A stretch of DNA of 64,000 bases, from the NCBI GenBank assembly GCA_014190355.1, contig BJGH01000001.1, positions 177,272 to 241,271 of the forward strand. Reading direction: 5' to 3'. Each line of letters begins with the position of its first letter. Position 1 is the first letter of the stretch. The translations under genes and the position numbers were made by a program. Under the pieces are notes generated by a model. It saw only the letters and a program-made list of their open reading frames with translations. It searched no databases and was not told the DNA's origin. This DNA is from Alphaproteobacteria bacterium. GTDB lineage: Bacteria; Pseudomonadota; Alphaproteobacteria; Rickettsiales; UBA1997. Shown here piece after piece: positions 2,898 to 30,369 of this stretch.

Positions 2898-5354
2898 ATG
2901 AAATTTACTCTTTCAAGCTTAAAAGATTTTCTTGAAACTGATGCTTCATTAAATGAAATCTGCCAAAAACTTACAGCAATTGGTCTAGAAGTTGAATCAG
3001 TTATTGATCAAGGAGCAATTCTTAATCAATTTAGCGTTGCAAAAGTAATTAGTTGCGAAAATCACCCAAACTCTAGCAAGCTCAAGATTTGTCAAGTCGA
3101 AGTTGTTAACAATTCACAACCTTTGCAAATTGTCTGCGCAGCAAGTAATGTAAGAGCGGGCATTAAAGTTGCATATGCTAAAATCGACTCGGTAATTCCT
3201 GCTTCAAAGATGGTTATTAAAAAAGCAAAAATTGCTGGAGTTGAAAGCAATGGTATGCTTTGCTCTGCTCAAGAATTAGAATTAGGTAATGATCACCAAG
3301 GAATTATTGAAATTGATGATAAGTTTGAAATTGGCCAAAAAATCAGCGAAGTATATCAAAAAAATGATGCCATAATTGAAATATATGTTACTCCAAATCG
3401 TGCAGATTGCCTTGGATTATATGGTATTGCCCGAGATCTAAGTGCTTGTGGATTAGGAAAATTAAAAAAAATTACTACTTCAAAAATTGAAGGTGATTTT
3501 GCAATTAAACTACAAATCGAAAATGAAAATTTTGATGCTTGTAATTACGCAATTTTTCGACAAATTAAAAATATTAAAAACTGCCAATCACCTCAATGGC
3601 TTAGAGATAAAATGCAAGCAATAGGTTTCAATTCAATCTCAGCAATTGTTGATATTACAAATTATGTTATGCATCTTACATCGCAGCCAATGCATGCCTA
3701 CGATACTAATAAAACCAATCAAAAAATATCAATTGGCTATGCTAAAAATTTCAATGAATTTACTTCTTTACAAAACCAAAATTATAAAGTTGATAGCGAT
3801 ATTTTAACCATTAAAGATCAAGAAAAAATATTGGCAATTGCTGGAGTTATTGGCTCAGCTCACAGCTCATGTCAAGAAAACACTTGCGATATTATTCTCG
3901 AATCAGCAAGTTTTAATTGTCACGAAGTTACTAAATCTGGAAGAAAATTAAATATCTTAAGTGAATCCCGACATCGCTTTGAAAGAGTTAGCGATCCATA
4001 TAACTGTGAATTGGCTATTGATCTTGCAAGCAATTTAATTTTAGAAATTTGTGCAGATAAAAACTCTCAGGTAAGTTATAAAAAAATTATTGGCGAATTG
4101 CCGAAGATTCGTAAAATTAACTTTAATTTTGAAAAATTTGTAAAAATAATTGGCTTTGCCGTTGATCAAAATCAGGCTAAAAAAATTCTTTTAGACTTGG
4201 GTTTTGAATGCGATGATAGCTTTAATATTTCAATCCCAAGCTATCGAAATGATATTAATATTGATGAAGATATTATCGAAGAAATAATTAGAATTTATGG
4301 CTATGATTTCATCAAAGCCAAACCAATATTAGACATTAATAGTTACAAACCATCTTTAACTTCACATAAAAATAAATCAAAAAACCAAGAAACCAAAAAT
4401 CATCAAGATTTTCAAATAAAGTTTAATAACTCTTCTTTTTTAAATTATTATTCCCATAAAATTAACAATTGCCTTATCAATCGAGCGATGAATGAAACCA
4501 TTAATTGGGCTTTTGTTGATAACAATATCGCTAAATTATTTTATGAAAATAAACCTGAGTTATTTCTAGAAAATCCAGTTTCCAGTGAAATGAATTATCT
4601 ACGCCCCACTCTGTTGATTGGGCTGATTAATAGTTATCAGAAAAATGCTTCACGCAGTCATACCAACCTTAGCTTATTTGAGATTGGCAATATTTTTCTC
4701 AATCTCAACCATCAACAATTATCAGTTGCAGGTCTTCGCTCAGGAAAAAACTGCGAAGCCAATCACCATCATACGAGTCGAGATTTTGATGTCTTTGATG
4801 TTAAAGCTGATTTTATAGCATGCCTGGATGCAATTAACTTAAAAACTAATAATTTAGAATTTACTCAAAATAATATTCCATCATACTATCACCCTCATCG
4901 CAGTGCTTCAATATTTATTGGTAAAAATATTTTAGGTTATTGTGGTGAAATTCATCCAGCTTTAAGCCAAAAATTAACTAATAAAAATCGCCTTAACTTC
5001 TTTGAAATTTTCCTTGATGATCAAATAATTAGTAAAAAACAAACTGTTTTCAAAGCATACATTGCTAATGACTATCCAGTAGTTGATCGCGATTTTGCTT
5101 TTATTGTTGATAAAGATTTACCGGTAAATGATCTAGTTAGAGCAATTGCCAGTAGCGATAAAAATCTTATTAAATCAGTTAATATTTTTGATATATTTAG
5201 CGGTAAAAATATTGAACAAGATAAAAAATCAGTAGCTTTAAATGTTAAAATTCAAGCAGAAGATAGAACACTTATAACTTCAGAAATTGATCAGCTAAGT
5301 AAAAAAATAATTGATGATGCAAATATTAAATGTAATGCCCATTTAAGAAGTTAA
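2898..5354 (+). CDS. pheT: Phenylalanine--tRNA ligase beta subunit
   Basis: 818 aa. The N-terminal tRNA-binding (EMAP-like) domain carries HPNSSKLKICQV and GVESNGMLCS. The layout then follows B3/4, B5 and a C-terminal anticodon-binding domain, typical of bacterial PheT. Confidence 0.95.
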   Translation: MKFTLSSLKDFLETDASLNEICQKLTAIGLEVESVIDQGAILNQFSVAKVISCENHPNSSKLKICQVEVVNNSQPLQIVCAASNVRAGIKVAYAKIDSVIPASKMVIKKAKIAGVESNGMLCSAQELELGNDHQGIIEIDDKFEIGQKISEVYQKNDAIIEIYVTPNRADCLGLYGIARDLSACGLGKLKKITTSKIEGDFAIKLQIENENFDACNYAIFRQIKNIKNCQSPQWLRDKMQAIGFNSISAIVDITNYVMHLTSQPMHAYDTNKTNQKISIGYAKNFNEFTSLQNQNYKVDSDILTIKDQEKILAIAGVIGSAHSSCQENTCDIILESASFNCHEVTKSGRKLNILSESRHRFERVSDPYNCELAIDLASNLILEICADKNSQVSYKKIIGELPKIRKINFNFEKFVKIIGFAVDQNQAKKILLDLGFECDDSFNISIPSYRNDINIDEDIIEEIIRIYGYDFIKAKPILDINSYKPSLTSHKNKSKNQETKNHQDFQIKFNNSSFLNYYSHKINNCLINRAMNETINWAFVDNNIAKLFYENKPELFLENPVSSEMNYLRPTLLIGLINSYQKNASRSHTNLSLFEIGNIFLNLNHQQLSVAGLRSGKNCEANHHHTSRDFDVFDVKADFIACLDAINLKTNNLEFTQNNIPSYYHPHRSASIFIGKNILGYCGEIHPALSQKLTNKNRLNFFEIFLDDQIISKKQTVFKAYIANDYPVVDRDFAFIVDKDLPVNDLVRAIASSDKNLIKSVNIFDIFSGKNIEQDKKSVALNVKIQAEDRTLITSEIDQLSKKIIDDANIKCNAHLRS

Positions 5355-5916: not shown

Positions 5917-6960
5917 TTATTTGGAAGATGAGCTGTTTTTAAAAAAATTAGCACAAGAAATTAGTTGATCCATGACTAAATCAATTTCTTGTTTAGATTG
6001 ATCAAAAAATATATTGGTTTTTTTTCTTAGATTTGTTAAAGACTCACTTATTTGTGGAATATTTTGTAATTCTTTTAAAAATAACTCTCGATAATAATTC
6101 TTAATTTCTGTTAGTTTTGAAGAATTATCAATAATTTCTTGATAATTTGTAGCATAATCTAGGTAACCAAGAACAGCCCCAACTCCAATTTCATATGGCA
6201 AAATTATAATCAAAATTAGAATAAAATCTGCTCTATTTTTAAAAATAAAACCGTCACAATTTAGCTTATTACGAATTATTGATATATTTTCATATAAATT
6301 GGCTCCAACATAATTTATTATTGGATCTTTATTGCTTTGAATAAATTCATAACACAATTCAAATGAATTATCTTTTTCAGAAAATTTTAAAATATTTTTC
6401 CCTAAAAAGTTCGCTCTGGATAAATGGTAATTTAAAAATTTTTGAATGTTATCATAGATTGATGACTTTATCGCTAAATCGTCTTTATCATCACAATCAT
6501 TCTGGGAAATTATTTGCATAACTCTCGAGATCGTTTTAATAACTCTCTCTTCTTTCATATAAACTCTTCCCACGGTATTTTTTTTGCTTTTAAGAAACTC
6601 AAAAAATTTATCAAACTTAACAAGATATGGTAAGCGCTTTTCTAAATCAATTTGATTATTTATTAAAACAATATAAATACTGTTAAGCCATATTTCAAAA
6701 GCACTGTCTATATATAAATTATTTTCATTAACTATTTGGGCAATTGCATTGAACTTGATGAGAGTATCCTGATTTGGATCATTAATAATTATTGTATATT
6801 TTTTAAAAAAATTAAAAATTTTATCGCTAGGGATTGAGTCCTCATTGATAAGAACACTAAGTATTTTAAAAAACTCAATGTTTTTAATTCTTAAAATATC
6901 TTTATAACTAGGATATTGATTAGCTTCTATATAGTCTTGATTTTCTTGATTAGTTTGCAT
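5917..6960 (-). CDS. Hypothetical protein with one predicted TM segment
   Basis: 347-aa ORF with no overlapping alternative. One hydrophobic stretch (FILILIIILPYEIGVGAVLGYL). No recognisable motif. Confidence 0.5.
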   Translation of the reverse strand: MQTNQENQDYIEANQYPSYKDILRIKNIEFFKILSVLINEDSIPSDKIFNFFKKYTIIINDPNQDTLIKFNAIAQIVNENNLYIDSAFEIWLNSIYIVLINNQIDLEKRLPYLVKFDKFFEFLKSKKNTVGRVYMKEERVIKTISRVMQIISQNDCDDKDDLAIKSSIYDNIQKFLNYHLSRANFLGKNILKFSEKDNSFELCYEFIQSNKDPIINYVGANLYENISIIRNKLNCDGFIFKNRADFILILIIILPYEIGVGAVLGYLDYATNYQEIIDNSSKLTEIKNYYRELFLKELQNIPQISESLTNLRKKTNIFFDQSKQEIDLVMDQLISCANFFKNSSSSK

Positions 6961-7073: not shown

Positions 7074-7150
7074 TGGTGGGTGGTAGAGAACTCGAATCTC
7101 CGACCTCTACGATGTCAACGTAACGCTCTAACCAACTGAGCTAACCACCC
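7074..7150 (-). tRNA. tRNA-Val (anticodon GAC), CCA encoded
   Basis: The reverse complement GGGTGGTTAGCTCAGTTGGTTAGAGCGTTACGTTGACATCGTAGAGGTCGGAGATTCGAGTTCTCTACCACCCACCA folds as a cloverleaf. The acceptor stem GGGTGGT/ACCACCC is perfect, the anticodon loop is TTGACAT and the T-loop is TTCGAGT. Confidence 0.9.
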
Positions 7151-8104: not shown

Positions 8105-8794
8105 TTACTTATCTAGCTCTTTTGATAATGCATTAATCAATAATAGTGAAAAATTACTTGCCCTTTCATTAAATTGATTAATTTTTGCCGCAAAAATATT
8201 ATAAAAAAATACAGCTGGAATTGCCGCAAATAAACCTATTGCCGTAGCTAGAAGGCTTTCTGCAATCCCTGGAGCAACAACTGCTAGGCTAGTATTTTTA
8301 GATACTGCAATCGCTTGAAAAGAATTTAAAATCCCCCACACTGTTCCAAACAAACCTACAAATGGCGCAGAAGAGCCAATAATTGCCATATAATTTAGCC
8401 CAGATTCAAGCTTAATCAACGATCTATTTGTGGCAACTGTCATAGCATTAGCCAATCGTTCTTTCAAAGCAGATTTTTTATCTACTCCATCACTCATGAT
8501 TTGCTTGATATTGTTTAACTTCCACTCTTTAATACAAGCCAAAAAAATTCTTGCCAATGGATGATTATCATTGTTTTTAGTTTTATTAAAAACCTCTTCA
8601 ATCTTAGCACCATTTTCAAAATACTCCTCAAACTCATCGCTTCTCTTTTTTAAAATTCTAAATTTTAATATTTTATCAAAAATTAAAGCCCATGAAAACA
8701 GGGAGGCAAAAACTAGGGCAAGAATAACTATCTGCACAATAATATCAGCTTGGATCAACAAATTTAAAACCGAAATCGATGAATTATTAGTCAT
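8105..8794 (-). CDS. tolQ: Tol-Pal system protein TolQ (MotA/TolQ/ExbB proton channel family)
   Basis: 229 aa with three TM segments. The conserved C-terminal core is FVGLFGTVWGILNSF...VVAPGIAESLLATAIGLFAAIPAV. Confidence 0.85.
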   Translation of the reverse strand: MTNNSSISVLNLLIQADIIVQIVILALVFASLFSWALIFDKILKFRILKKRSDEFEEYFENGAKIEEVFNKTKNNDNHPLARIFLACIKEWKLNNIKQIMSDGVDKKSALKERLANAMTVATNRSLIKLESGLNYMAIIGSSAPFVGLFGTVWGILNSFQAIAVSKNTSLAVVAPGIAESLLATAIGLFAAIPAVFFYNIFAAKINQFNERASNFSLLLINALSKELDK

Positions 8795-14155: not shown

Positions 14156-14755
14156 TTAAGGATAAAGTGTTTTTGTTTGCCATCCCTGACCAACCAATTC
14201 ATAACATTGACGATGGTGAATACGAAATTTTCCTTCACTCCAAAATTCAATAACTTTAGGAACTACTCGAAAACCAGACCAAAACTCTGGTCTTTTAACT
14301 TCTTTATCACGAAATATTTCTTCATAATAACTAATTCGCTCTTCAAACTCACTCCATTGTTTCATTTCTGTTGACTGTTTGGAAGCCCATGCCCCGATTT
14401 GACTTTGACGAGCTCGGCTTTTGAAATATTCATCGGCTTCTGTATCACTAACTCTTTTGGCAACTCCCTCAATTCTAATTTGCCTACTCAAAACCCCCCA
14501 GTAAAAACATAAACTAACATTGGGATTAGCTGAGATTTCTTGAGCTTTACGACTATTTAAATTAGTAAAAAAACAAAATCCTCGCTCATCAAATTTTTTT
14601 AGAAGAACCATTCGATTTGATGGACAATTTTTATTATCAACGCTAGCCAGATTCATTGCAGTAGGCTCAACAATTCTATTATCAGTGTTGGCTTCATCAA
14701 GCCATTGCTTAAATTTATTAAAAGGCTCATTAAAAGCAATTATTTGCATTGTCAT
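14156..14755 (-). CDS. pdxH: Pyridoxamine 5'-phosphate oxidase
   Basis: 199 aa. Motifs RMVLLKKFDERGFCFFTNLNSRK, RQIRIEG, YFKSRARQSQIGAWAS and EFW...R(I)HHR are diagnostic for PdxH. Confidence 0.9.
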   Translation of the reverse strand: MTMQIIAFNEPFNKFKQWLDEANTDNRIVEPTAMNLASVDNKNCPSNRMVLLKKFDERGFCFFTNLNSRKAQEISANPNVSLCFYWGVLSRQIRIEGVAKRVSDTEADEYFKSRARQSQIGAWASKQSTEMKQWSEFEERISYYEEIFRDKEVKRPEFWSGFRVVPKVIEFWSEGKFRIHHRQCYELVGQGWQTKTLYP

Positions 14756-25370: not shown

Positions 25371-25383
25371 ATTGCCTAAAGAT

Positions 25384-25576
25384 ATTATAAATTTTTTTAG
25401 GTCGTGCTTTCGGGCAAGTTAAAAACTTGCCCTTACGCAACGACGGGAGTATAGAATAGATTTTGGAGATTGGGGTGAGATTATAAATTTTTTTTGGTCG
25501 TGCTTTCGGGCAAGTTAAAAACTTGCCCTTACGCAACGACTGTTGGCTAGAATGAGGTTTGGAGATTGGGGTGAGA
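25384..25576. repeat. Tandem duplication (2 x 96 bp) of a hairpin-containing element
   Basis: Copy 1 is 25384-25479 and copy 2 is 25480-25575. The first 61 nt differ at one position and the last 18 nt (TTTGGAGATTGGGGTGAG) are identical. A 17-nt patch between them shares only 8 identities. Each copy holds a GC-rich hairpin: GTCGTGC-TTTC-GGGCAAGTT-AAA-AACTTGCCC-TTAC-GCAACGAC. Confidence 0.8.
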
Positions 25577-25663: not shown

Positions 25664-25739
25664 GGGTGATTAGCTCAGTTGGTAGAGCATCTCCCTTACA
25701 AGGAGAGGGTCGGCAGTTCGAGCCTGTCATCACCCACCA
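25664..25739 (+). tRNA. tRNA-Val (anticodon UAC), CCA encoded
   Basis: GGGTGATTAGCTCAGTTGGTAGAGCATCTCCCTTACAAGGAGAGGGTCGGCAGTTCGAGCCTGTCATCACCCACCA folds as a cloverleaf. The acceptor stem is GGGTGAT/ATCACCC and the anticodon loop is CTTACAA. Confidence 0.9.
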
Positions 25740-25890: not shown

Positions 25891-25967
25891 GGGGGTGTAG
25901 CTCAGTTGGTTAGAGCGCTTGCCTGTCACGCAAGAGGCCGCGGGTTCAAGTCCCGTCACTCCCGCCA
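25891..25967 (+). tRNA. tRNA-Asp (anticodon GUC), CCA encoded
   Basis: GGGGGTGTAGCTCAGTTGGTTAGAGCGCTTGCCTGTCACGCAAGAGGCCGCGGGTTCAAGTCCCGTCACTCCCGCCA folds as a cloverleaf with anticodon loop CTGTCAC. Confidence 0.9.
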
Positions 25968-25973
25968 CTTACT
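25953..25973 (+). repeat. Direct repeat copy 1 (last 15 nt of tRNA-Asp plus 6 nt of downstream flank)
   Basis: CCGTCACTCCCGCCACTTACT is identical to 27621-27641. Weaker similarity continues into the A-rich flank. Confidence 0.85.
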
Positions 25974-26214
25974 AAAAAAAACTACTACAGGATCACTTCT
26001 GATCGCAATAGCTTTTGGAAAATATAAAGAAGATGGCGCGCCTTATACTGGCACAAAAGACGGAGGAAGAGTTTATATAGCCTACTTAAACCATCCGCTA
26101 CTATTCAGAGTAGGATTAGCTTTATTAGTTTTTGGATTTGGTTTTCAATTATTGGAAAAGTTAGAAATATTAAAACTAATAAATTCCTTAGCATACTAAC
26201 ATTAAGATTAGAAT

Positions 26215-27483
26215 ATGGACTTCAAATTTTTATCAAAATTACTCCAAAACTATTTGGTAAGATTGGGTAACACATCCAAAGAAAATAAACTTGCGTATCT
26301 ATTATTAATAATAGTTTTTTTTGTATGCTATAACACAGGATTGGTAGCGCTTTTTAGTGCCTTAATTGCAATTTATGCAATATTTTTTAATACCATGAGC
26401 AATGAATACAACGCTAGAAGTGCACTTATTAGCGATTTAACCAATAAAGCAACTGACCATTTAAAAGCATTTAAGGATGGTACTTTGGCATTGGAAGCAA
26501 TGCAAATGCAACTTTTACCTAAACCTCATTACTTTCAAATTTATGATGTTTTAACCTATAAACCTAAAAAAACTGAATATCGAGAAAAAGAACTAATAAT
26601 TAAGATTGATAACAGAACTGGTATAGTCTCAAAATTTAAAATTTTCATAGCCAATAAAGGTAAATGCATAGAAAATTACACAGAAATAGATGAAAAAGAA
26701 TATTTAGGAAAAGGTCAATTTGGAGAACCAGTAATACAATGGATCAAAATTTATGAAATGCTTGATATCCGAGCATACTCAGCAGAATTTATTAAAAAAT
26801 ACATTGTAGGAATGAAAAAATCAGGACTAAAAAAAGACGAAGTAGGAGTCAAAGCAAATCTACAAGGTATATGGCTTCATGGCGCAAAATTAGAAGAAGC
26901 AAACTTGGAGGAGGCAAACTTACAGGGAGTTAGTTTGCAAGGAGCGGATCTATCAGGAGCAAATTTATATAAAGCCAATTTGCAAGAATCATATTTACAG
27001 GGAGCAATTCTACAAGAGGCTAATTTACAAAAAACAAACTTAGAGAGAGCTAATTTACAAGAAGCTAATTTAATAGTAATGCAATTACAGGAAGCGGATT
27101 TATCAATGGCAAATTTAAGAAAAACAAATTTAATATTTTCTAATTTACAAGGAGCGGATTTAAATAAAACGGATTTCAGAGAAGCGAAATTTCGACAAAC
27201 AAATTTTAAAAAAGCTATAATTGGCCTTATTAATGAAAAAATAACACTTGAAGAAGTTTTATTAAATCCTGATTTGTTTGAAAAACACAAAAAAGACTTA
27301 CCTAGATTTTCTAGTCTTGTTCAATTAGAGGGAGCAATATTTCATGAAGATTGCGGCATAATTGATGGAAAAATAAAAAATGCATTAATTGAAGCAGAAA
27401 AATGGAAGCTGGAGCATGAAAAGAAAAATGGATTGAGTCCTGATTTTTGTGATTATCGCCTAACTTATCTCGACACAAAATAA
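26215..27483 (+). CDS. Membrane-anchored pentapeptide-repeat protein
   Basis: 422 aa with two N-terminal TM helices. From about aa 215 to 335 it has ~24 consecutive A(N/D)LxG/E-type pentapeptide units (ANLQGIWLHGAKLEEANLEEANLQGVSLQGADLSGANLYKANLQ...). Confidence 0.85.
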   Translation: MDFKFLSKLLQNYLVRLGNTSKENKLAYLLLIIVFFVCYNTGLVALFSALIAIYAIFFNTMSNEYNARSALISDLTNKATDHLKAFKDGTLALEAMQMQLLPKPHYFQIYDVLTYKPKKTEYREKELIIKIDNRTGIVSKFKIFIANKGKCIENYTEIDEKEYLGKGQFGEPVIQWIKIYEMLDIRAYSAEFIKKYIVGMKKSGLKKDEVGVKANLQGIWLHGAKLEEANLEEANLQGVSLQGADLSGANLYKANLQESYLQGAILQEANLQKTNLERANLQEANLIVMQLQEADLSMANLRKTNLIFSNLQGADLNKTDFREAKFRQTNFKKAIIGLINEKITLEEVLLNPDLFEKHKKDLPRFSSLVQLEGAIFHEDCGIIDGKIKNALIEAEKWKLEHEKKNGLSPDFCDYRLTYLDTK

Positions 27484-27620
27484 CGCATCTAGTTCTCAGG
27501 AAAGTATAAATATAAATTTATAGTCATAAGCAATCTTGGGGGTAAAAATGGGGGTAAATAGGTTTTTTATAAAACCATAAATCCTTTATTTACAAATCTC
27601 CAAAGCCTACAATATGACTG

Positions 27621-27641
27621 CCGTCACTCCCGCCACTTACT
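27621..27641 (+). repeat. Direct repeat copy 2 (att-like duplicate of the tRNA-Asp 3' end)
   Basis: CCGTCACTCCCGCCACTTACT is a 21/21 match to 25953-25973. No tRNA body lies upstream of it. Confidence 0.85.
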
Positions 27642-28112
27642 TTAAAAAAACCACTATATTTTTTCTCGTTTTTATTGTTAATAAACTAAAAAAATTTCAA
27701 AAATCCTTTTGCAAATTTTCCTTCCCCATATTTATAATATTCATCAGCAAAAAATTACTTAATTATCCTTGGCAACCTTGTTCGAGCTCTTAAATAATAT
27801 TGGCAATCAAGCATAAATTTAAGACTTAGTAAAATCATGACCAAGCTTGATTTATATGATTAAGATAGATAATCATAAGCAATTTGTGTTGATTGAAAAT
27901 ATATCAAACTTAAATCAAAGCATTTTGTAATTAAGAAAAAATATAGCATTAATCACAAAATAAATTATAACAAAATATAAAGAAAAAAAATGCCACTTCC
28001 AATCAACCAAAATCAGCAACCATATTCCAATTACATGGAAAACTATATAAAAAAACTAAAATACACCAAATATTTAATATTAAAAACACGCAAAACACTA
28101 ACAAACTAAACT

Positions 28113-29120
28113 ATGTCAAATAACCAACAAAACCAACCCTCCCCGCAAATCCTACTTTATCAAAGCGAGGATGGCAAAATTAAACTTGATGTTGAATTAC
28201 AGCAAGAAACCGTCTGGCTTAATCAAGAACAAATGGCGGTTTTGTTTGGCAAGGCAAAATCTACCATCAACGAACATATTCAAAATATTTATACTGAAGG
28301 AGAGCTTTTAGAAAGCCAGTCCATGAAGAAATTCGGAAATTCCGAATTTCAACAAAAAGCCACAAATTATTACAACCTTGATGTCATAATTTCTGTTGGT
28401 TATCGGGTAAAATCAAAGCAAGGCACACAATTTCGCATTTGGGCGACTAATCGTTTAAAAGAATATATTGTTAAAGGTTTTGCACTAAATGATGATCGCT
28501 TTAAAGCTGGCAAGTCGATGAATTATTTTGATGAATTGCAAGAAAGAATTCGTGAAATTAGGCTTTCTGAACGCTTCTTCTATCAAAAAATTAAAGATAT
28601 TTACGCAACCAGCATTGATTATGACGCCAAAGATGAAAAGACAATTGAATTTTTTCAAATTGTCCAAAACAAGCTTTTATGGGCAATAAGCAAGCAAACT
28701 GCAGCAGAGTTGATTTACAAAAGGTCTGATGGCAATTTGCCTTTTATGGGCATGAAATCTTATGACAAAAAAACCGAAAAATCGATCACTAAAAAAGATT
28801 CTGAAATTGGCAAAAATTATTTAGATGAAAGCGAAATTAAATTGCTTGGGCTTTTGGTTGAGCAATATTTGGCATTTGCCGAAACGATGGCAAATCAAAG
28901 AATTGCAATGTATATGAAAGATTGGATTGCAAAACTTGATTCAATCTTGCAACTTAACGGCAGAGAGATTTTAAAACATGCAGGAACAATAACTCACAAA
29001 ATTGCAGTTGAAAAATCAGGAAACGAATATCAAAAATTTAAAGAAATTCAAAAAAAACTAGAAAAACAAGAAAGCTTGAAAGAGCTCGAAAATGATTTAA
29101 TGAAAATTAAAAACTTATGA
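28113..29120 (+). CDS. RhuM-family (virulence-protein RhuM-like) protein
   Basis: 335 aa. The N-terminal pattern ILLYQSEDGKIKLDVELQQETVWLNQEQMAVLFGKAKSTINEHIQNIYTEGEL...YNLDVIISVGYRVKSKQGTQFRIWATNRLKEYIVKGFALND matches the RhuM family as I recall it. Confidence 0.75.
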   Translation: MSNNQQNQPSPQILLYQSEDGKIKLDVELQQETVWLNQEQMAVLFGKAKSTINEHIQNIYTEGELLESQSMKKFGNSEFQQKATNYYNLDVIISVGYRVKSKQGTQFRIWATNRLKEYIVKGFALNDDRFKAGKSMNYFDELQERIREIRLSERFFYQKIKDIYATSIDYDAKDEKTIEFFQIVQNKLLWAISKQTAAELIYKRSDGNLPFMGMKSYDKKTEKSITKKDSEIGKNYLDESEIKLLGLLVEQYLAFAETMANQRIAMYMKDWIAKLDSILQLNGREILKHAGTITHKIAVEKSGNEYQKFKEIQKKLEKQESLKELENDLMKIKNL

Positions 29121-29800
29121 CTAACAAAGAAGATTTTTATGAAAAAAATAATTCATCAATATTCGACCCAAAAGGAACCAATTGGATTGATGATATTGAA
29201 ATTTTATTAAACGATAAGCATTTTGTTAAACATTATCAAGATAATTTTTTTTCTCTTTACGCATCAGGCTATAAAGATTCAGCAAATATACTTTGCGAAC
29301 ATATCATAGAAAAAAAACGAACTTTAAATCGATCCGGCATAGTTTATCCAATAATTTATCTTTACAGACATTATTTAGAACTTCAGTTAAAAAACTTAAT
29401 TTTATTAAGTAATAAAGCTATTCTTCTAATTAATAACAACTCCTTTGATGATAGCTATAAAAAAATAATACTTTCTCATAATCTTATAGATTTATACGAT
29501 TTATGTTTAAAAAATCTAAAAAACTTATCAGAAGAAATTGGGGAAGAAGAATCTTTAATTAACGAAAATGAGGATTTTTCAATGCTAAAAAATATTATTA
29601 AAGAATTTGATAAACATGACAAATTATCTGAAGCTTTTAGATATCCGGTGGATAAAAAAAATAATTTTAACTTACAAAAAATTAATAACATTAACATAAA
29701 AAAAATATACGATATGATTAATGAGGGCACTAAAATATTAGATGGAGCTGAAGGCTGGCTTGATCATCAAATTTCTGAAATTTCTAAGAATCATAGTTGA
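29117..29800 (+). CDS. Hypothetical protein translationally coupled to the RhuM-family gene
   Basis: 227 aa. Its ATG overlaps the RhuM-like stop (ATGA). It looks helical and has locally conserved-looking motifs YLYRHYLELQLKN, LSHNLIDLY and AFRYPVDK. No family recognised with confidence. Confidence 0.55.
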   Translation: MTNKEDFYEKNNSSIFDPKGTNWIDDIEILLNDKHFVKHYQDNFFSLYASGYKDSANILCEHIIEKKRTLNRSGIVYPIIYLYRHYLELQLKNLILLSNKAILLINNNSFDDSYKKIILSHNLIDLYDLCLKNLKNLSEEIGEEESLINENEDFSMLKNIIKEFDKHDKLSEAFRYPVDKKNNFNLQKINNINIKKIYDMINEGTKILDGAEGWLDHQISEISKNHS

Positions 29801-29834
29801 TTTTAAAAATAAAAAATTTTTTTAAGTTGATATT

Positions 29835-30146
29835 TTGGCAGCCAAAGGAGATTTAGGTTTTGAAAATCCTAAAATTTGTATTCAAGTAAAATCGGGCTCA
29901 GCGGTTGGAATTGATATTTTAGATCGCCTTTCAGGAACAATCAAAAAAGTTAAAGCTGATTTTGGTTTGCTGGTTTCTTGGGAAGGTTTCAAAGGAAGTA
30001 TTAAAGAAGAAAAGAAAAATGAATTTTTTGCAATCAGGCTTTGGGAGCAAAAAGAACTGGTTGAAGAATTTTTAAAACATTATCATAAACTAGATGAAGA
30101 GATAAAGTCAGAAATCCCTTTGAAGCAAATCTTGATTTATTTCTAA
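29835..30146 (+). pseudogene. 3' fragment of an Mrr-like restriction endonuclease (Mrr_cat family)
   Basis: Only 103 codons, opening with TTG. GDLGFENPKICIQVKSGSAVGIDILDRLSGTIKKVKADFGLLVSWEGFKGSIKEEKKNEFFAIRLWEQKELVEEF...EIPLKQIL corresponds to the C-terminal half of ~300-aa Mrr-type enzymes. The N-terminal wHTH and the upstream catalytic Asp region are missing. Confidence 0.6.
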
Positions 30147-30369
30147 TGATGAATAATTTTAACTAAAATAAATTATGGAGGTGTAATTGCGGTCAGTAGC
30201 TATAAAATTCGAATTATAGATTTTTTTTAATATTTTTTTATTGATAAAAACAATTCCAAAAAAGCTGGCAGGCTAGAAAAAATCTTTTGCAATACTAACA
30301 GATTTAGTAAAATCTATCTTATTTATTTTTAAATTAAAATTTATAAATTATCACAAAACCTCTGCAAAT

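What the first reader, a model, noticed from the sequence alone, without database searches (positions are those of the whole stretch)
25953..27641. 21-bp duplicate of the tRNA-Asp 3' end brackets a 1.65-kb single-gene insert lacking an integrase
CCGTCACTCCCGCCACTTACT covers the last 15 nt of tRNA-Asp plus 6 nt of flank and recurs exactly at 27621-27641. Partial similarity continues into the A-rich flank. Direct repeats of a tRNA 3' end are the attL/attR scars of integrase-mediated insertion. No integrase or excisionase is present between them, only the pentapeptide-repeat gene and a startless ORF fragment (25980-26199). The element is therefore probably immobilised and decayed, or the second copy marks a boundary between two successive insertions.
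Basis: partly seen in the sequence, partly recalled or inferred. Interest (0 to 1): 0.6.

Follow-up and report, generated by a model that had tools for sequence, protein, structure and literature searches.

The report
Stacked gene islands at tRNA-Asp
The 21-base repeat is real: it marks where a small one-gene DNA segment was inserted at the end of a tRNA-Asp gene, ahead of an older, decayed phage-defence island, which is an ordinary kind of bacterial genome scar.

Summary
CCGTCACTCCCGCCACTTACT occurs exactly twice in the window, at 25953-25973 (last 15 nt of tRNA-Asp plus 6 nt) and at 27621-27641. No copy is expected by chance, and an imperfect extension brings the repeat to 33 of 36 positions.

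Related freshwater Rickettsiales-like contigs show what lies around it. In relatives, tRNA-Asp is followed directly by a conserved non-coding stretch, which I call X. X is a 5'-truncated relic that is probably a tyrosine recombinase. After X come variable defence genes, then RhuM, then a conserved ~100-nt end piece (the "P arm") and a degenerate copy of the tRNA end.

In the window, X sits after the second 21-mer, and the P arm sits just before it. So 25974-27620 (ORF fragment, pentapeptide-repeat gene, P arm) is a later insertion between tRNA-Asp and an older, decayed island. That older island holds X, an hsdS relic, RhuM and a broken Mrr-like gene, and ends near 30.2 kb. The second 21-mer is therefore the junction of two stacked islands.

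No intact integrase was found among the window ORFs tested. This matches tandem accretion of decayed, att-flanked islands, which is a known pattern. Interest is low to moderate.

The parts
25664..25739 (+). tRNA-Val(TAC). It is the conserved left neighbour of the hot spot.
   Evidence: ARAGORN and Rfam. The order HU, tRNA-Val, tRNA-Asp is conserved in L131, L134, L135, L086 and L074.
25891..25967 (+). tRNA-Asp(GTC), intact. It is the integration target.
   Evidence: ARAGORN gives 77 nt and Rfam gives 74 bits. L017 and L123 carry an identical 77/77 sequence.
25953..25973 (+). Core copy 1 (attL-like): 15 nt of the tRNA 3' end plus 6 nt of flank. An imperfect extension runs to about 25988.
25974..27620 (+). 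Island A, the younger 1.65-kb insert. It holds the ORF fragment, the pentapeptide-repeat gene and the right-end piece (P arm).
   Evidence: It is bracketed by exact 21-mers. It is absent from the equivalent tRNA-Asp|X junction of L017, L131 and L134. The coding part has no nucleotide-level relative in any fetched locus, apart from low-identity repeat-region hits to L123.
25981..26199 (+). Startless 72-codon open frame with hydrophobic segments. It is probably the 3' remnant of a truncated membrane-protein gene, or non-coding.
   Evidence: Translation. No family hit in Pfam, NCBIfam, PADLOC or PHROGs. No tblastn relative in any locus.
26215..27483 (+). 422-aa protein: N-terminal transmembrane helices, a small uncharacterised domain, a pentapeptide-repeat beta-helix and a helical C-terminus. 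Function unknown.
   Evidence: Pfam PF00805, E=3e-34. It falls below every Qnr, MfpA and PipB cut-off in NCBIfam. The only full-length relative found in the first search is P0003, at 35% identity. The N-terminal domain has 15 matches at E<=0.001 (one of them this gene's own product) among 1.84 billion representatives, and all 10 that were scanned carry pentapeptide repeats. The AF2 model has pLDDT 79, and only the beta-helix matches PDB entries.
27515..27620 (+). P arm, the conserved right-end piece of this island family. It has two direct 10-mers TGGGGGTAAA (27537-27546 and 27549-27558), a small hairpin (27561-27576), and a conserved ATG at 27614 just before the core.
   Evidence: Homologous to the sequence just before the degenerate distal core in L017 (77% over 77 nt, E=5e-10) and in L134 (75% over 114 nt, E=1e-16). 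The empirical control gave 57 against a next-best unrelated score of 25. It aligns weakly with L147 (E=0.003), L150 (E=0.006) and L135 (E=0.032). It is not tRNA-like.
27621..27641 (+). Core copy 2: the junction between island A and island B, in attP-like order (P arm, core, X).
27642..27930 (+). X, the left-end piece of the older island B. It is a heavily decayed 5'-truncated relic that is probably a tyrosine recombinase. The motif region lies at about 27700-27880.
   Evidence: It is the unique match in the window for the post-tRNA-Asp sequences of L017, L131 and L134. Better-preserved copies read ...PYYNPHSFRDTLSMLGKK...AWSQNLGHSKMSTTLDEYG.... hhalign puts HxxR, GH..TT and Y in register with positions 239-307 of 315 in a XerC/D-like ORF, E=0.03. 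JGI names one copy 'integrase/recombinase XerD'. Pfam, NCBIfam and PDB sequence searches gave no recombinase hit.
27933..28097 (+). Relic of the last ~55 codons of a type I restriction specificity gene (hsdS), with an in-frame stop.
   Evidence: tblastn of L131 HsdS residues 297-354: 41% identity, E=3e-9. It has the same position upstream of RhuM as in L131 and L134.
28113..29120 (+). RhuM-family gene (PADLOC candidate PDC-S05). It is the conserved cargo gene of the island family.
   Evidence: Pfam PF13310, E=1e-95. PADLOC PDC-S05, E=7e-127. It is 92-94% identical in L017, L131, L134 and L135, whose ArgJ (L131, L134, L135) is only 66% identical to the window's.
29117..30146 (+). A 227-aa ORF plus a 103-aa Mrr_cat C-terminal fragment in another frame. 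Together they are probably one frameshifted Mrr-like restriction gene.
   Evidence: The fragment matches Pfam Mrr_cat and positions 239-339 of 346 of PADLOC PDC-S02. L134 keeps a relic of the same gene's 3' end between RhuM and its P arm (21 against a control maximum of 19, 0 of 2392).
30147..30270 (+). Possible degenerate P arm, which would be the right end of island B. This is tentative, and no recognisable third core copy follows it.
   Evidence: It is collinear with the L134 P arm but weak when taken alone (17 against a control mean of 11.4; 57 of 2382 controls reach it). Together with the Mrr 3' end it is the only second above-background site (40 against 25). No third core was found with up to 3 mismatches or by nhmmer.

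Best explanation
The window holds a composite genomic island at the 3' end of tRNA-Asp, in an uncultured freshwater alphaproteobacterium (Lake Biwa MAG; its relatives are labelled Rickettsiales).

The older island B runs from 27642 to about 30270. It is a decayed restriction/defence island of a family found at the same tRNA in relatives. Its parts, in order, are a 5'-truncated recombinase relic (X) next to the tRNA end, an hsdS relic, RhuM, and a broken Mrr-like gene. Its right end is almost erased.

Later, a second element A (25974-27620) recombined into the tRNA-Asp copy of the att core. That event left the tRNA intact. It pushed the old tRNA 3' end plus X 1668 bp downstream and created the exact 21-bp direct repeat. 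A carries the family's right-end P arm, which suggests that the same kind of tyrosine integrase recognises it. It has no integrase of its own. Either the integrase was deleted together with the 5' part of the neighbouring gene (the startless ORF fragment), or it was supplied in trans.

Shown here: the repeat, the order P arm - core - X, the homologies to relatives, and the decay of B. Inferred: that a tyrosine integrase made the junctions, the order of events (B first, then A), and that A is now immobile unless helped in trans. The function of A's cargo, a membrane-anchored pentapeptide-repeat protein, is unknown. A defence or anti-defence role is only guilt by association.

The confidence of 0.62 applies to this full statement, including the integrase-made junctions. 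The structural part alone (an insertion between tRNA-Asp and X, giving two stacked islands) I would put at about 0.85.
For: The repeat is exact, unique and unexpected by chance, and it overlaps the tRNA 3' end.

X sequences taken from directly 3' of tRNA-Asp in L017, L131 and L134 match the window only at 27642-28112. They do not match the tRNA-proximal flank. The window and L017 share the same truncation point of the relic, 24 codons after the core. The window's core2|X junction is therefore the ancestral tRNA|X junction.

The P arm before core 2 is homologous to the piece before the degenerate distal core of L017 and L134, and weakly to L147, L150 and L135. L134 shows a second case of a tRNA-end-plus-flank direct repeat bounding such an island. 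L123 carries, directly after its tRNA-Asp, the flank that in L017 follows the distal core: 17 of 17 nt identical, with the same msrB gene downstream. That is an empty-site relation for the L017 island.

The cargo between tRNA-Asp and RhuM differs in every relative: SIR2-HerA, type I R-M, type III R-M, or HTH/DUF4357 genes. RhuM is 92-94% identical across lineages whose ArgJ is 66% identical.

Core 2 is perfect, whereas the distal cores of the relatives are degenerate and B's own is unrecognisable. This fits A being the later arrival. No recombinase was found in the ORFs tested across the window. Tandem accretion of decayed att-flanked elements is a described process (PMC5704250).
Against: No intact integrase or excisionase was found among the window ORFs tested or in the island regions of the related loci examined. 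The recombinase identity of X rests on motif register, an hhalign E-value of 0.03 and one source annotation. Pfam, NCBIfam and PDB sequence searches gave no recombinase hit, and the structure model was too poor to use.

No empty site or circular junction of A itself was found. The predicted empty-site 40-mer had 0 hits in JGI metagenomes, and the 21-mer had 0 hits in viral contigs.

A's left end does not resemble X beyond about 36 nt, so A is not a complete member of the island family. B's right-end P arm is only weakly detectable (p about 0.02), and no third core was found. The contigs of the two closest relatives (L004, L005) break at or before this tRNA, so no same-genus comparison exists.
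Confidence: 0.62

Rival explanations
1. No integrase was involved. Island A entered by homologous recombination from donor DNA of a related lineage. The left crossover fell in the conserved HU/tRNA-Val/tRNA-Asp region. The right crossover fell in the short 21-36 bp identity between the donor's distal core and the recipient's tRNA end (homology-facilitated illegitimate recombination). The att-like scar is then an old relic that is merely reused as a patch of homology.
For: None of the islands examined at this hot spot has an intact integrase. The conserved flanks (tRNAs on the left, RhuM and the P arm on the right) together with completely different cargo look like cassette exchange between conserved anchors. 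The product of this route would be identical to that of site-specific integration.
Against: A stretch of 21-36 bp is very short for RecA-dependent exchange. The repeat begins and ends where tRNA-targeting integrases typically leave their scar. The P arm has paired direct 10-mers like arm-type binding sites and is conserved across lineages. A recombinase relic sits at the family's left end.
Confidence: 0.2
2. The array arose by tandem duplication of one ancestral island, through unequal crossing-over between its two core copies. The interior of the tRNA-proximal copy was later replaced by the ORF fragment and the pentapeptide gene.
For: Duplication would give the same P arm - core - X junction.
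Against: A's P arm is well conserved relative to L134 and L017, while B's is almost unrecognisable. A's P arm also shows no similarity to B's in the same genome (score 11 against a control mean of 10.8). That is hard to reconcile with a duplication recent enough to keep core 2 identical at 21 of 21 positions. The model also still needs an unexplained gene replacement.
Confidence: 0.08
3. Assembly artefact: a chimeric join at a shared 21-mer, which is the smallest k of common metagenome assemblers.
For: The exact part of the repeat is 21 nt, and the source is a metagenome-assembled scaffold.
Against: The same structure, with both copies, is present in an independently built Logan contig, and the gene is in the NCBI MAG. 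Similarity extends to 33 of 36 positions beyond the 21-mer. Both sides of the distal copy have the homologies expected for a real island junction.
Confidence: 0.03

Closest known systems
Genomic islands and integrative elements inserted at the 3' end of tRNA genes by tyrosine integrases (P4-like and related). This comparison is from general knowledge.
   Same: There is a direct repeat of the tRNA 3' end, here covering T-stem and acceptor-stem 3' strands and CCA plus a few flank bases. The tRNA is kept intact. Accessory and defence cargo lies in between. A recombinase gene sits next to the tRNA at the left end, here only as a relic in island B.
   Different: No functional integrase is present in island A or B, or in any related island seen. 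Island A is only 1.65 kb with one gene.
CIMEs (cis-mobilizable elements) and tandem accretion, described for ICESt1-related elements of Streptococcus thermophilus and reviewed in PMC5704250
   Same: These are decayed elements that keep their att sites but have lost their integration genes. A later element integrates into one att site and forms a tandem with an internal att junction.
   Different: In the described cases the incoming element is a functional ICE or IME carrying an integrase. Here the incoming element A also lacks one, and no conjugation genes are seen. Mobilisation was not tested.
Defence islands and integration hot spots with variable cargo. RhuM-like genes embedded in R-M loci are discussed in PMC3710099.
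   Same: The same chromosomal spot (HU, tRNA-Val, tRNA-Asp) holds type I R-M, type III R-M, SIR2-HerA, an Mrr-like gene and RhuM in different lineages. RhuM sits beside R-M genes, as described.
   Different: Island A's cargo matches no known or candidate defence family in PADLOC.
SSV-type archaeal integrases, whose gene is split by integration because attP lies inside the int ORF. This comparison is from general knowledge.
   Same: A conserved ATG or GTG lies just 5' of the distal core. In the window, an ORF (27614-27793) runs from it through core 2 in frame into the recombinase relic.
   Different: In L153, L131 and L134 about 100 nt of non-coding sequence with stops separates the tRNA end from the relic. 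The relic shows nested 5' truncations rather than one fixed split point. The resemblance is probably accidental.
Qnr, MfpA and AlbG DNA-mimic pentapeptide-repeat proteins
   Same: The protein has the same right-handed quadrilateral beta-helix fold.
   Different: It scores far below all Qnr and MfpA family cut-offs. It also has an N-terminal membrane anchor and an extra domain that those proteins lack.

Membership tests
tRNA-inserted integrative element / genomic island (tyrosine-integrase type) | Direct repeat formed by the 3' end of the target tRNA gene, bracketing the element | tested here: met
   There are exact 21-mers at 25953 and 27621, with 33 of 36 positions matching in the extension and 0 copies expected by chance.
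tRNA-inserted integrative element / genomic island (tyrosine-integrase type) | Target tRNA gene remains intact after insertion | tested here: met
   ARAGORN calls the gene and Rfam scores it at 74 bits. The sequence is identical to tRNA-Asp of L017 and L123.
tRNA-inserted integrative element / genomic island (tyrosine-integrase type) | Integrase gene encoded within the element | tested here: not met
   Island A holds only the ORF fragment and the pentapeptide gene. Island B has only a truncated, frameshifted probable relic. No recombinase was found among the window ORFs tested.
tRNA-inserted integrative element / genomic island (tyrosine-integrase type) | Unoccupied site in relatives (tRNA followed directly by the distal flank) | tested here: met
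   This is met at the level of orthologous loci. L017, L131 and L134 have tRNA-Asp followed by X, which in the window follows core 2. It is not met at the same-species level: the exact empty-site 40-mer is absent from JGI metagenomes.
tRNA-inserted integrative element / genomic island (tyrosine-integrase type) | Excision to a circular form with an attP junction | not testable with these tools
   This needs read mapping or PCR.
CIME (cis-mobilizable element) in a tandem accretion | Retains att sites on both sides but lacks integration and transfer genes | tested here: met
   This holds for island A. Island B keeps its left att but has lost a recognisable right core.
CIME (cis-mobilizable element) in a tandem accretion | Internal att junction joining the right end of one element to the left end of the next | tested here: met
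   The order P arm - core 2 - X is shown by homologies to L017 and L134.
CIME (cis-mobilizable element) in a tandem accretion | Mobilised in cis by a related functional ICE or IME | not testable with these tools
   No functional partner element was seen, and an experiment would be needed.
Defence island / hot spot | Same flanks with different defence cargo across relatives | tested here: met
   The cargo is SIR2-HerA in L017, type I R-M in L131, type III R-M in L134, and HTH/DUF4357 genes in L135, with RhuM in all of them.
Defence island / hot spot | Cargo of the insert itself belongs to a known defence family | tested here: not met
   The pentapeptide protein and the ORF fragment have no PADLOC hit.
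Qnr/MfpA pentapeptide-repeat resistance proteins | Score above the family's curated cut-off | tested here: not met
   The best Qnr-type score is 37 bits against cut-offs of 240-500.

The most novel reading that the evidence does not exclude
The islands at this hot spot may form a family that still moves between lineages, and between tRNA-Asp and non-tRNA sites, even though every observed copy carries only a 5'-truncated recombinase relic. That would imply mobilisation by a mechanism not encoded in the island. One version is an int reading frame and promoter that are reconstituted only across the circular P arm-core-X junction, as with SSV-type split integrases or ICEclc-type junction promoters. 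Another is dependence on a helper element that is still unknown.
Probability: 0.06. Interest if true: 0.65.

Novelty: new member of a known kind. Interest (0 to 1): 0.3.

Why it matters
The finding documents a tRNA-Asp integration and defence hot spot in an uncultured freshwater Rickettsiales-like lineage. It is a worked example of tandem accretion in which both islands have lost their integrase. It also flags a very rare family of membrane-anchored pentapeptide-repeat proteins as island cargo. None of this changes how such islands are understood. Its use is mainly for annotating these MAGs and for explaining why their contigs so often break at this tRNA.

Tried and rejected
1. P arm as a decayed tRNA-Asp duplicate: rejected. 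The flanks show no significant similarity, and there is no tRNA-like Rfam match at E<=10.

2. Third copy of the core or P arm in the window: none was found with up to 3 mismatches or by nhmmer. Only a weak, collinear P-arm-like stretch exists at 30147-30270.

3. Exact empty-site 40-mer in JGI metagenomes: 0 hits. The 21-mer in IMG/VR: 0 hits. The pattern CTGCCGTCACTCCCGCCA in IMG/VR gave 6 hits, all from unrelated contigs of 51-64% G+C.

4. BLAST of 25968-28112 against phage and plasmid collections: the only hit was an unrelated pentapeptide repeat in a Listeria phage, and there were no plasmid matches.

5. Recombinase identity of X by Pfam, NCBIfam or PDB sequence search: no recombinase hit, even for a 172-aa composite. 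tblastn and a small XerC/D profile also found nothing. The AF2 model of the relic had pLDDT 49 and was not usable, so no fold search was run.

6. SSV-type split integrase: considered because an ORF runs in frame from a conserved ATG through core 2 into the relic. L153, L131 and L134 do not support it.

8. The closest relatives, L004 and L005, are uninformative because their contigs end at or before tRNA-Asp.

9. Pentapeptide gene as a marker of a mobile element: its few homologues sit among housekeeping genes with no mobility genes nearby.
Full report
**1. The observation**

ARAGORN and Rfam place tRNA-Val(TAC) at 25664-25739 and tRNA-Asp(GTC) at 25891-25967. The 21-mer CCGTCACTCCCGCCACTTACT is exact at 25953-25973 and 27621-27641. 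These are the only two matches in the 64-kb window even with three mismatches allowed, and none is expected from shuffles. It covers the last 15 nt of the tRNA plus 6 nt of flank. A local alignment extends the repeat to 33 of 36 positions with a 1-nt gap.

Upstream of the distal copy there is no significant similarity to the 5' part of the tRNA. Rfam finds nothing tRNA-like there at E<=10. The distal copy is therefore an isolated tRNA 3' end, not a decayed second tRNA gene.

Between the copies lie a startless 72-codon frame (25981-26199) with no family match and a 422-aa pentapeptide-repeat gene (26215-27483). The source is a Lake Biwa metagenome scaffold, which NCBI labels 'Alphaproteobacteria bacterium' LBMAG18. 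An independently assembled Logan contig contains both copies and both junctions.

**2. The neighbourhood**

To the left are housekeeping genes: TrpB, TrpA, ArgJ, ZapA, 5-formyl-THF cyclo-ligase and HU. To the right of the second 21-mer the genes look like a run-down defence island:
- a RhuM-family gene (PADLOC candidate PDC-S05) at 28113-29120;
- a 227-aa ORF;
- a 103-aa fragment matching only the C-terminal third of an Mrr-like nuclease;
- an unknown 438-aa ORF on the other strand.

After these come isocitrate dehydrogenase, RmuC, SecA and so on. No integrase was found among the ORFs tested across the window.

**3. Relatives**

A genome scan with ArgJ found freshwater MAGs labelled Rickettsiales. 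The contigs of the two closest (94% and 79% ArgJ identity) end at or before tRNA-Asp. A metagenome scan for the tRNA-Asp 3' end and look-ups of RhuM homologues gave informative loci.
- L017 carries tRNA-Asp, 310 nt of non-coding DNA (X), SIR2-like, HerA-like and RhuM genes, a ~100-nt piece (the P arm), a degenerate tRNA-end copy (CCGTCAgTttCGCCA), and then msrB.
- L131-L133 carry HU, tRNA-Val, tRNA-Asp, X, hsdM, hsdS and RhuM.
- L134 carries tRNA-Asp, X, type III Mod and Res, an hsdS fragment, RhuM, an Mrr 3' relic, the P arm, a degenerate repeat of the tRNA end plus its flank, and then trmD.
- L135-L138 carry tRNA-Asp, HTH/DUF4357 genes, RhuM and a weak P arm.

L123 comes from the same lineage as L017. 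Directly after its tRNA-Asp it has the 17 nt that in L017 follow the distal copy, and it shares msrB downstream. That is an empty-site relation for the L017 island.

The spot is thus a hot spot with variable defence cargo and conserved ends. RhuM is 92-94% identical in lineages whose ArgJ is only 66% identical, which implies horizontal exchange.

**4. Where the window fits**

The X sequences taken from directly behind tRNA-Asp in L017, L131 and L134 match the window at one place only, 27642-28112. Their scores were 60, 47 and 76, against control maxima of 38, 28 and 35 over 1238 other window segments. They do not match the window's own tRNA-proximal flank, where the scores of 23, 15 and 19 are background.

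The P arm of L134 and L017 matches 27515-27620, immediately before the second 21-mer. The order in the window is therefore:
- tRNA-Asp/core 1;
- ORF fragment, pentapeptide gene, P arm;
- core 2;
- X, hsdS relic (27933-28097), RhuM, broken Mrr-like gene.

P arm - core - X is the junction expected between two islands in tandem.

L134 keeps a relic of the same Mrr gene's 3' end between RhuM and its P arm. By that synteny, the right end of the older island should lie at about 30150-30270. A P-arm-like stretch is there, but it is weak on its own (p about 0.02), and no third core is recognisable.

**5. What X is**

X is better preserved in relatives. A protein search with the stitched L134 reading found nine short ORFs (56-134 aa) in related contigs. 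One of them reads in an intact frame ...PYYDPHSFRDTLSMLGKKTCTLEQYQAWSQNLGHSKMSTTLDEYGGIS..., and JGI names another 'integrase/recombinase XerD'.

A profile-sequence comparison aligns HxxR, GH..TT and the Tyr in register with positions 239-307 of 315 in a XerC/D-like ORF, E=0.03. Pfam, NCBIfam and PDB sequence searches give no recombinase hit, and the structure model was unusable. The identification is therefore probable, not proven.

The relic shows nested 5' truncations next to the tRNA. It is longest in L153, shorter in L150, shorter again in L131 and L134, and shortest in L017 and the window. L017 and the window share the same end point, 24 codons after the core. That shared end point means the window's core 2|X junction descends from a tRNA-Asp|X junction like that of L017. 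The 1668 bp now lying between them were inserted later.

**6. Mechanism**

The best-supported reading is tandem accretion at a tRNA att site. An old integrase-borne defence island (B) decayed in place. A second element (A) carrying the family's P arm then recombined with the tRNA copy of the core.

The order B first, then A rests on three points. Core 2 is perfect, while B's distal core is gone. Relatives have tRNA|X. And A's P arm does not resemble B's remnant, which argues against a recent internal duplication.

A has no integrase. The startless ORF fragment abutting core 1 suggests a deletion that removed A's left part, but supply of the integrase in trans is equally possible.

A rival that cannot be excluded is recombination without an integrase. 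It would be anchored in the conserved tRNA region on one side and in the 21-36-bp identity on the other. All the islands seen lack a working integrase, which fits cassette exchange between conserved flanks.

**7. The cargo**

The 422-aa protein has N-terminal membrane helices, a small domain of unknown fold, a pentapeptide beta-helix and a helical tail. The AF2 model has pLDDT 79, and only the beta-helix matches solved structures.

The N-terminal domain defines a very rare family, with 15 matches at E<=0.001 (one of them this gene's own product) among 1.84 billion representatives. All 10 members that were scanned carry pentapeptide repeats. The homologues examined sit among housekeeping genes. 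The protein is not a Qnr/MfpA member and matches no PADLOC family. Its function is unknown.

**8. Comparison and novelty**

Direct repeats of a tRNA 3' end, decayed islands that keep their att sites (CIMEs) and tandem accretion are well described (PMC5704250). So is RhuM beside R-M genes (PMC3710099). This locus is a new member of a known kind.

One speculative novel reading was considered. In it, the int frame is reconstituted across the circular junction, because an ORF (27614-27793) runs from a conserved ATG through core 2 into the relic. L153, L131 and L134 do not support this.

**9. Verdict**

The finding is ordinary in kind and of modest interest.

Noticed in passing
window 25381-25572: There is a 96-nt tandem duplication (89% identity) between the HU gene and tRNA-Val. 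Each unit contains an identical 45-nt nested hairpin, GGTCGTGCtttcGGGCAAGTtaaaaACTTGCCCttacGCAACGAC. These are the only two copies in the window, and the equivalent spacer of the close relative L004 lacks them. Nature unknown.
   Followed up: partly
L004 5840-6001 (closest relative, ArgJ 94%): At the position of tRNA-Asp there are only about 34 nt resembling the tRNA 5' part, followed by a perfect palindrome AAATCAAGCCATGGCTTGATTT. ARAGORN calls no tRNA-Asp. The contig ends 120 nt later in a repeat of the pre-tRNA leader.
   Followed up: no
window 29117-30146: The 227-aa ORF and the 103-aa Mrr_cat fragment (PDC-S02 positions 239-339 of 346) lie in different frames. Together they have the length of one Mrr-like gene, so this is probably a frameshifted pseudogene.
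   Followed up: partly
window 28113-29120, with L017, L131, L134, L135: RhuM is 92-94% identical at the protein level across lineages whose ArgJ is 66% and MTHFS about 42% identical. It is still about 75% identical to Bacteroidota proteins. This implies frequent horizontal transfer of the gene.
   Followed up: partly
L147 about 190-250 and 6275-6335; also L150 about 8540-8600 and 14570-14620: The relic-R-M-P arm cassette in L147 is bracketed by a ~58-nt near-perfect inverted repeat containing ATACCAAAT...ATTTGGTAT. Similar palindromic units flank the cassette in L150. They may be REP-like elements or ends of another mobile unit.
   Followed up: no
L147-L149, L150-L152: The recombinase relic, type III R-M genes (Mod, Bro-N protein, Res) and a P arm with a degenerate tRNA-Asp-end copy also occur where the left neighbour is a response-regulator or HTH gene and no tRNA is called. 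The module is therefore not confined to tRNA-Asp.
   Followed up: partly
window 5917-6960 (- strand): A 347-aa ORF with no Pfam match lies directly 3' of tRNA-Val(GAC) (7074-7150, - strand). This is another tRNA-adjacent gene of unknown function.
   Followed up: no
L123 855-1751 (- strand of the locus): A different 298-aa pentapeptide-repeat protein with no membrane anchor is the first gene after tRNA-Asp in a related lineage. It resembles the window's protein only in the repeat region.
   Followed up: partly
L134 about 4640-4680: Between tRNA-Asp and the relic there is a G-run pair, TTTTGGGGGGTACAATAGGGGGCACAAAT, resembling the paired TGGGGGTA motifs at the start of the P arm. It may be a trace of an earlier tandem junction or a second set of arm-type sites.
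   Followed up: no
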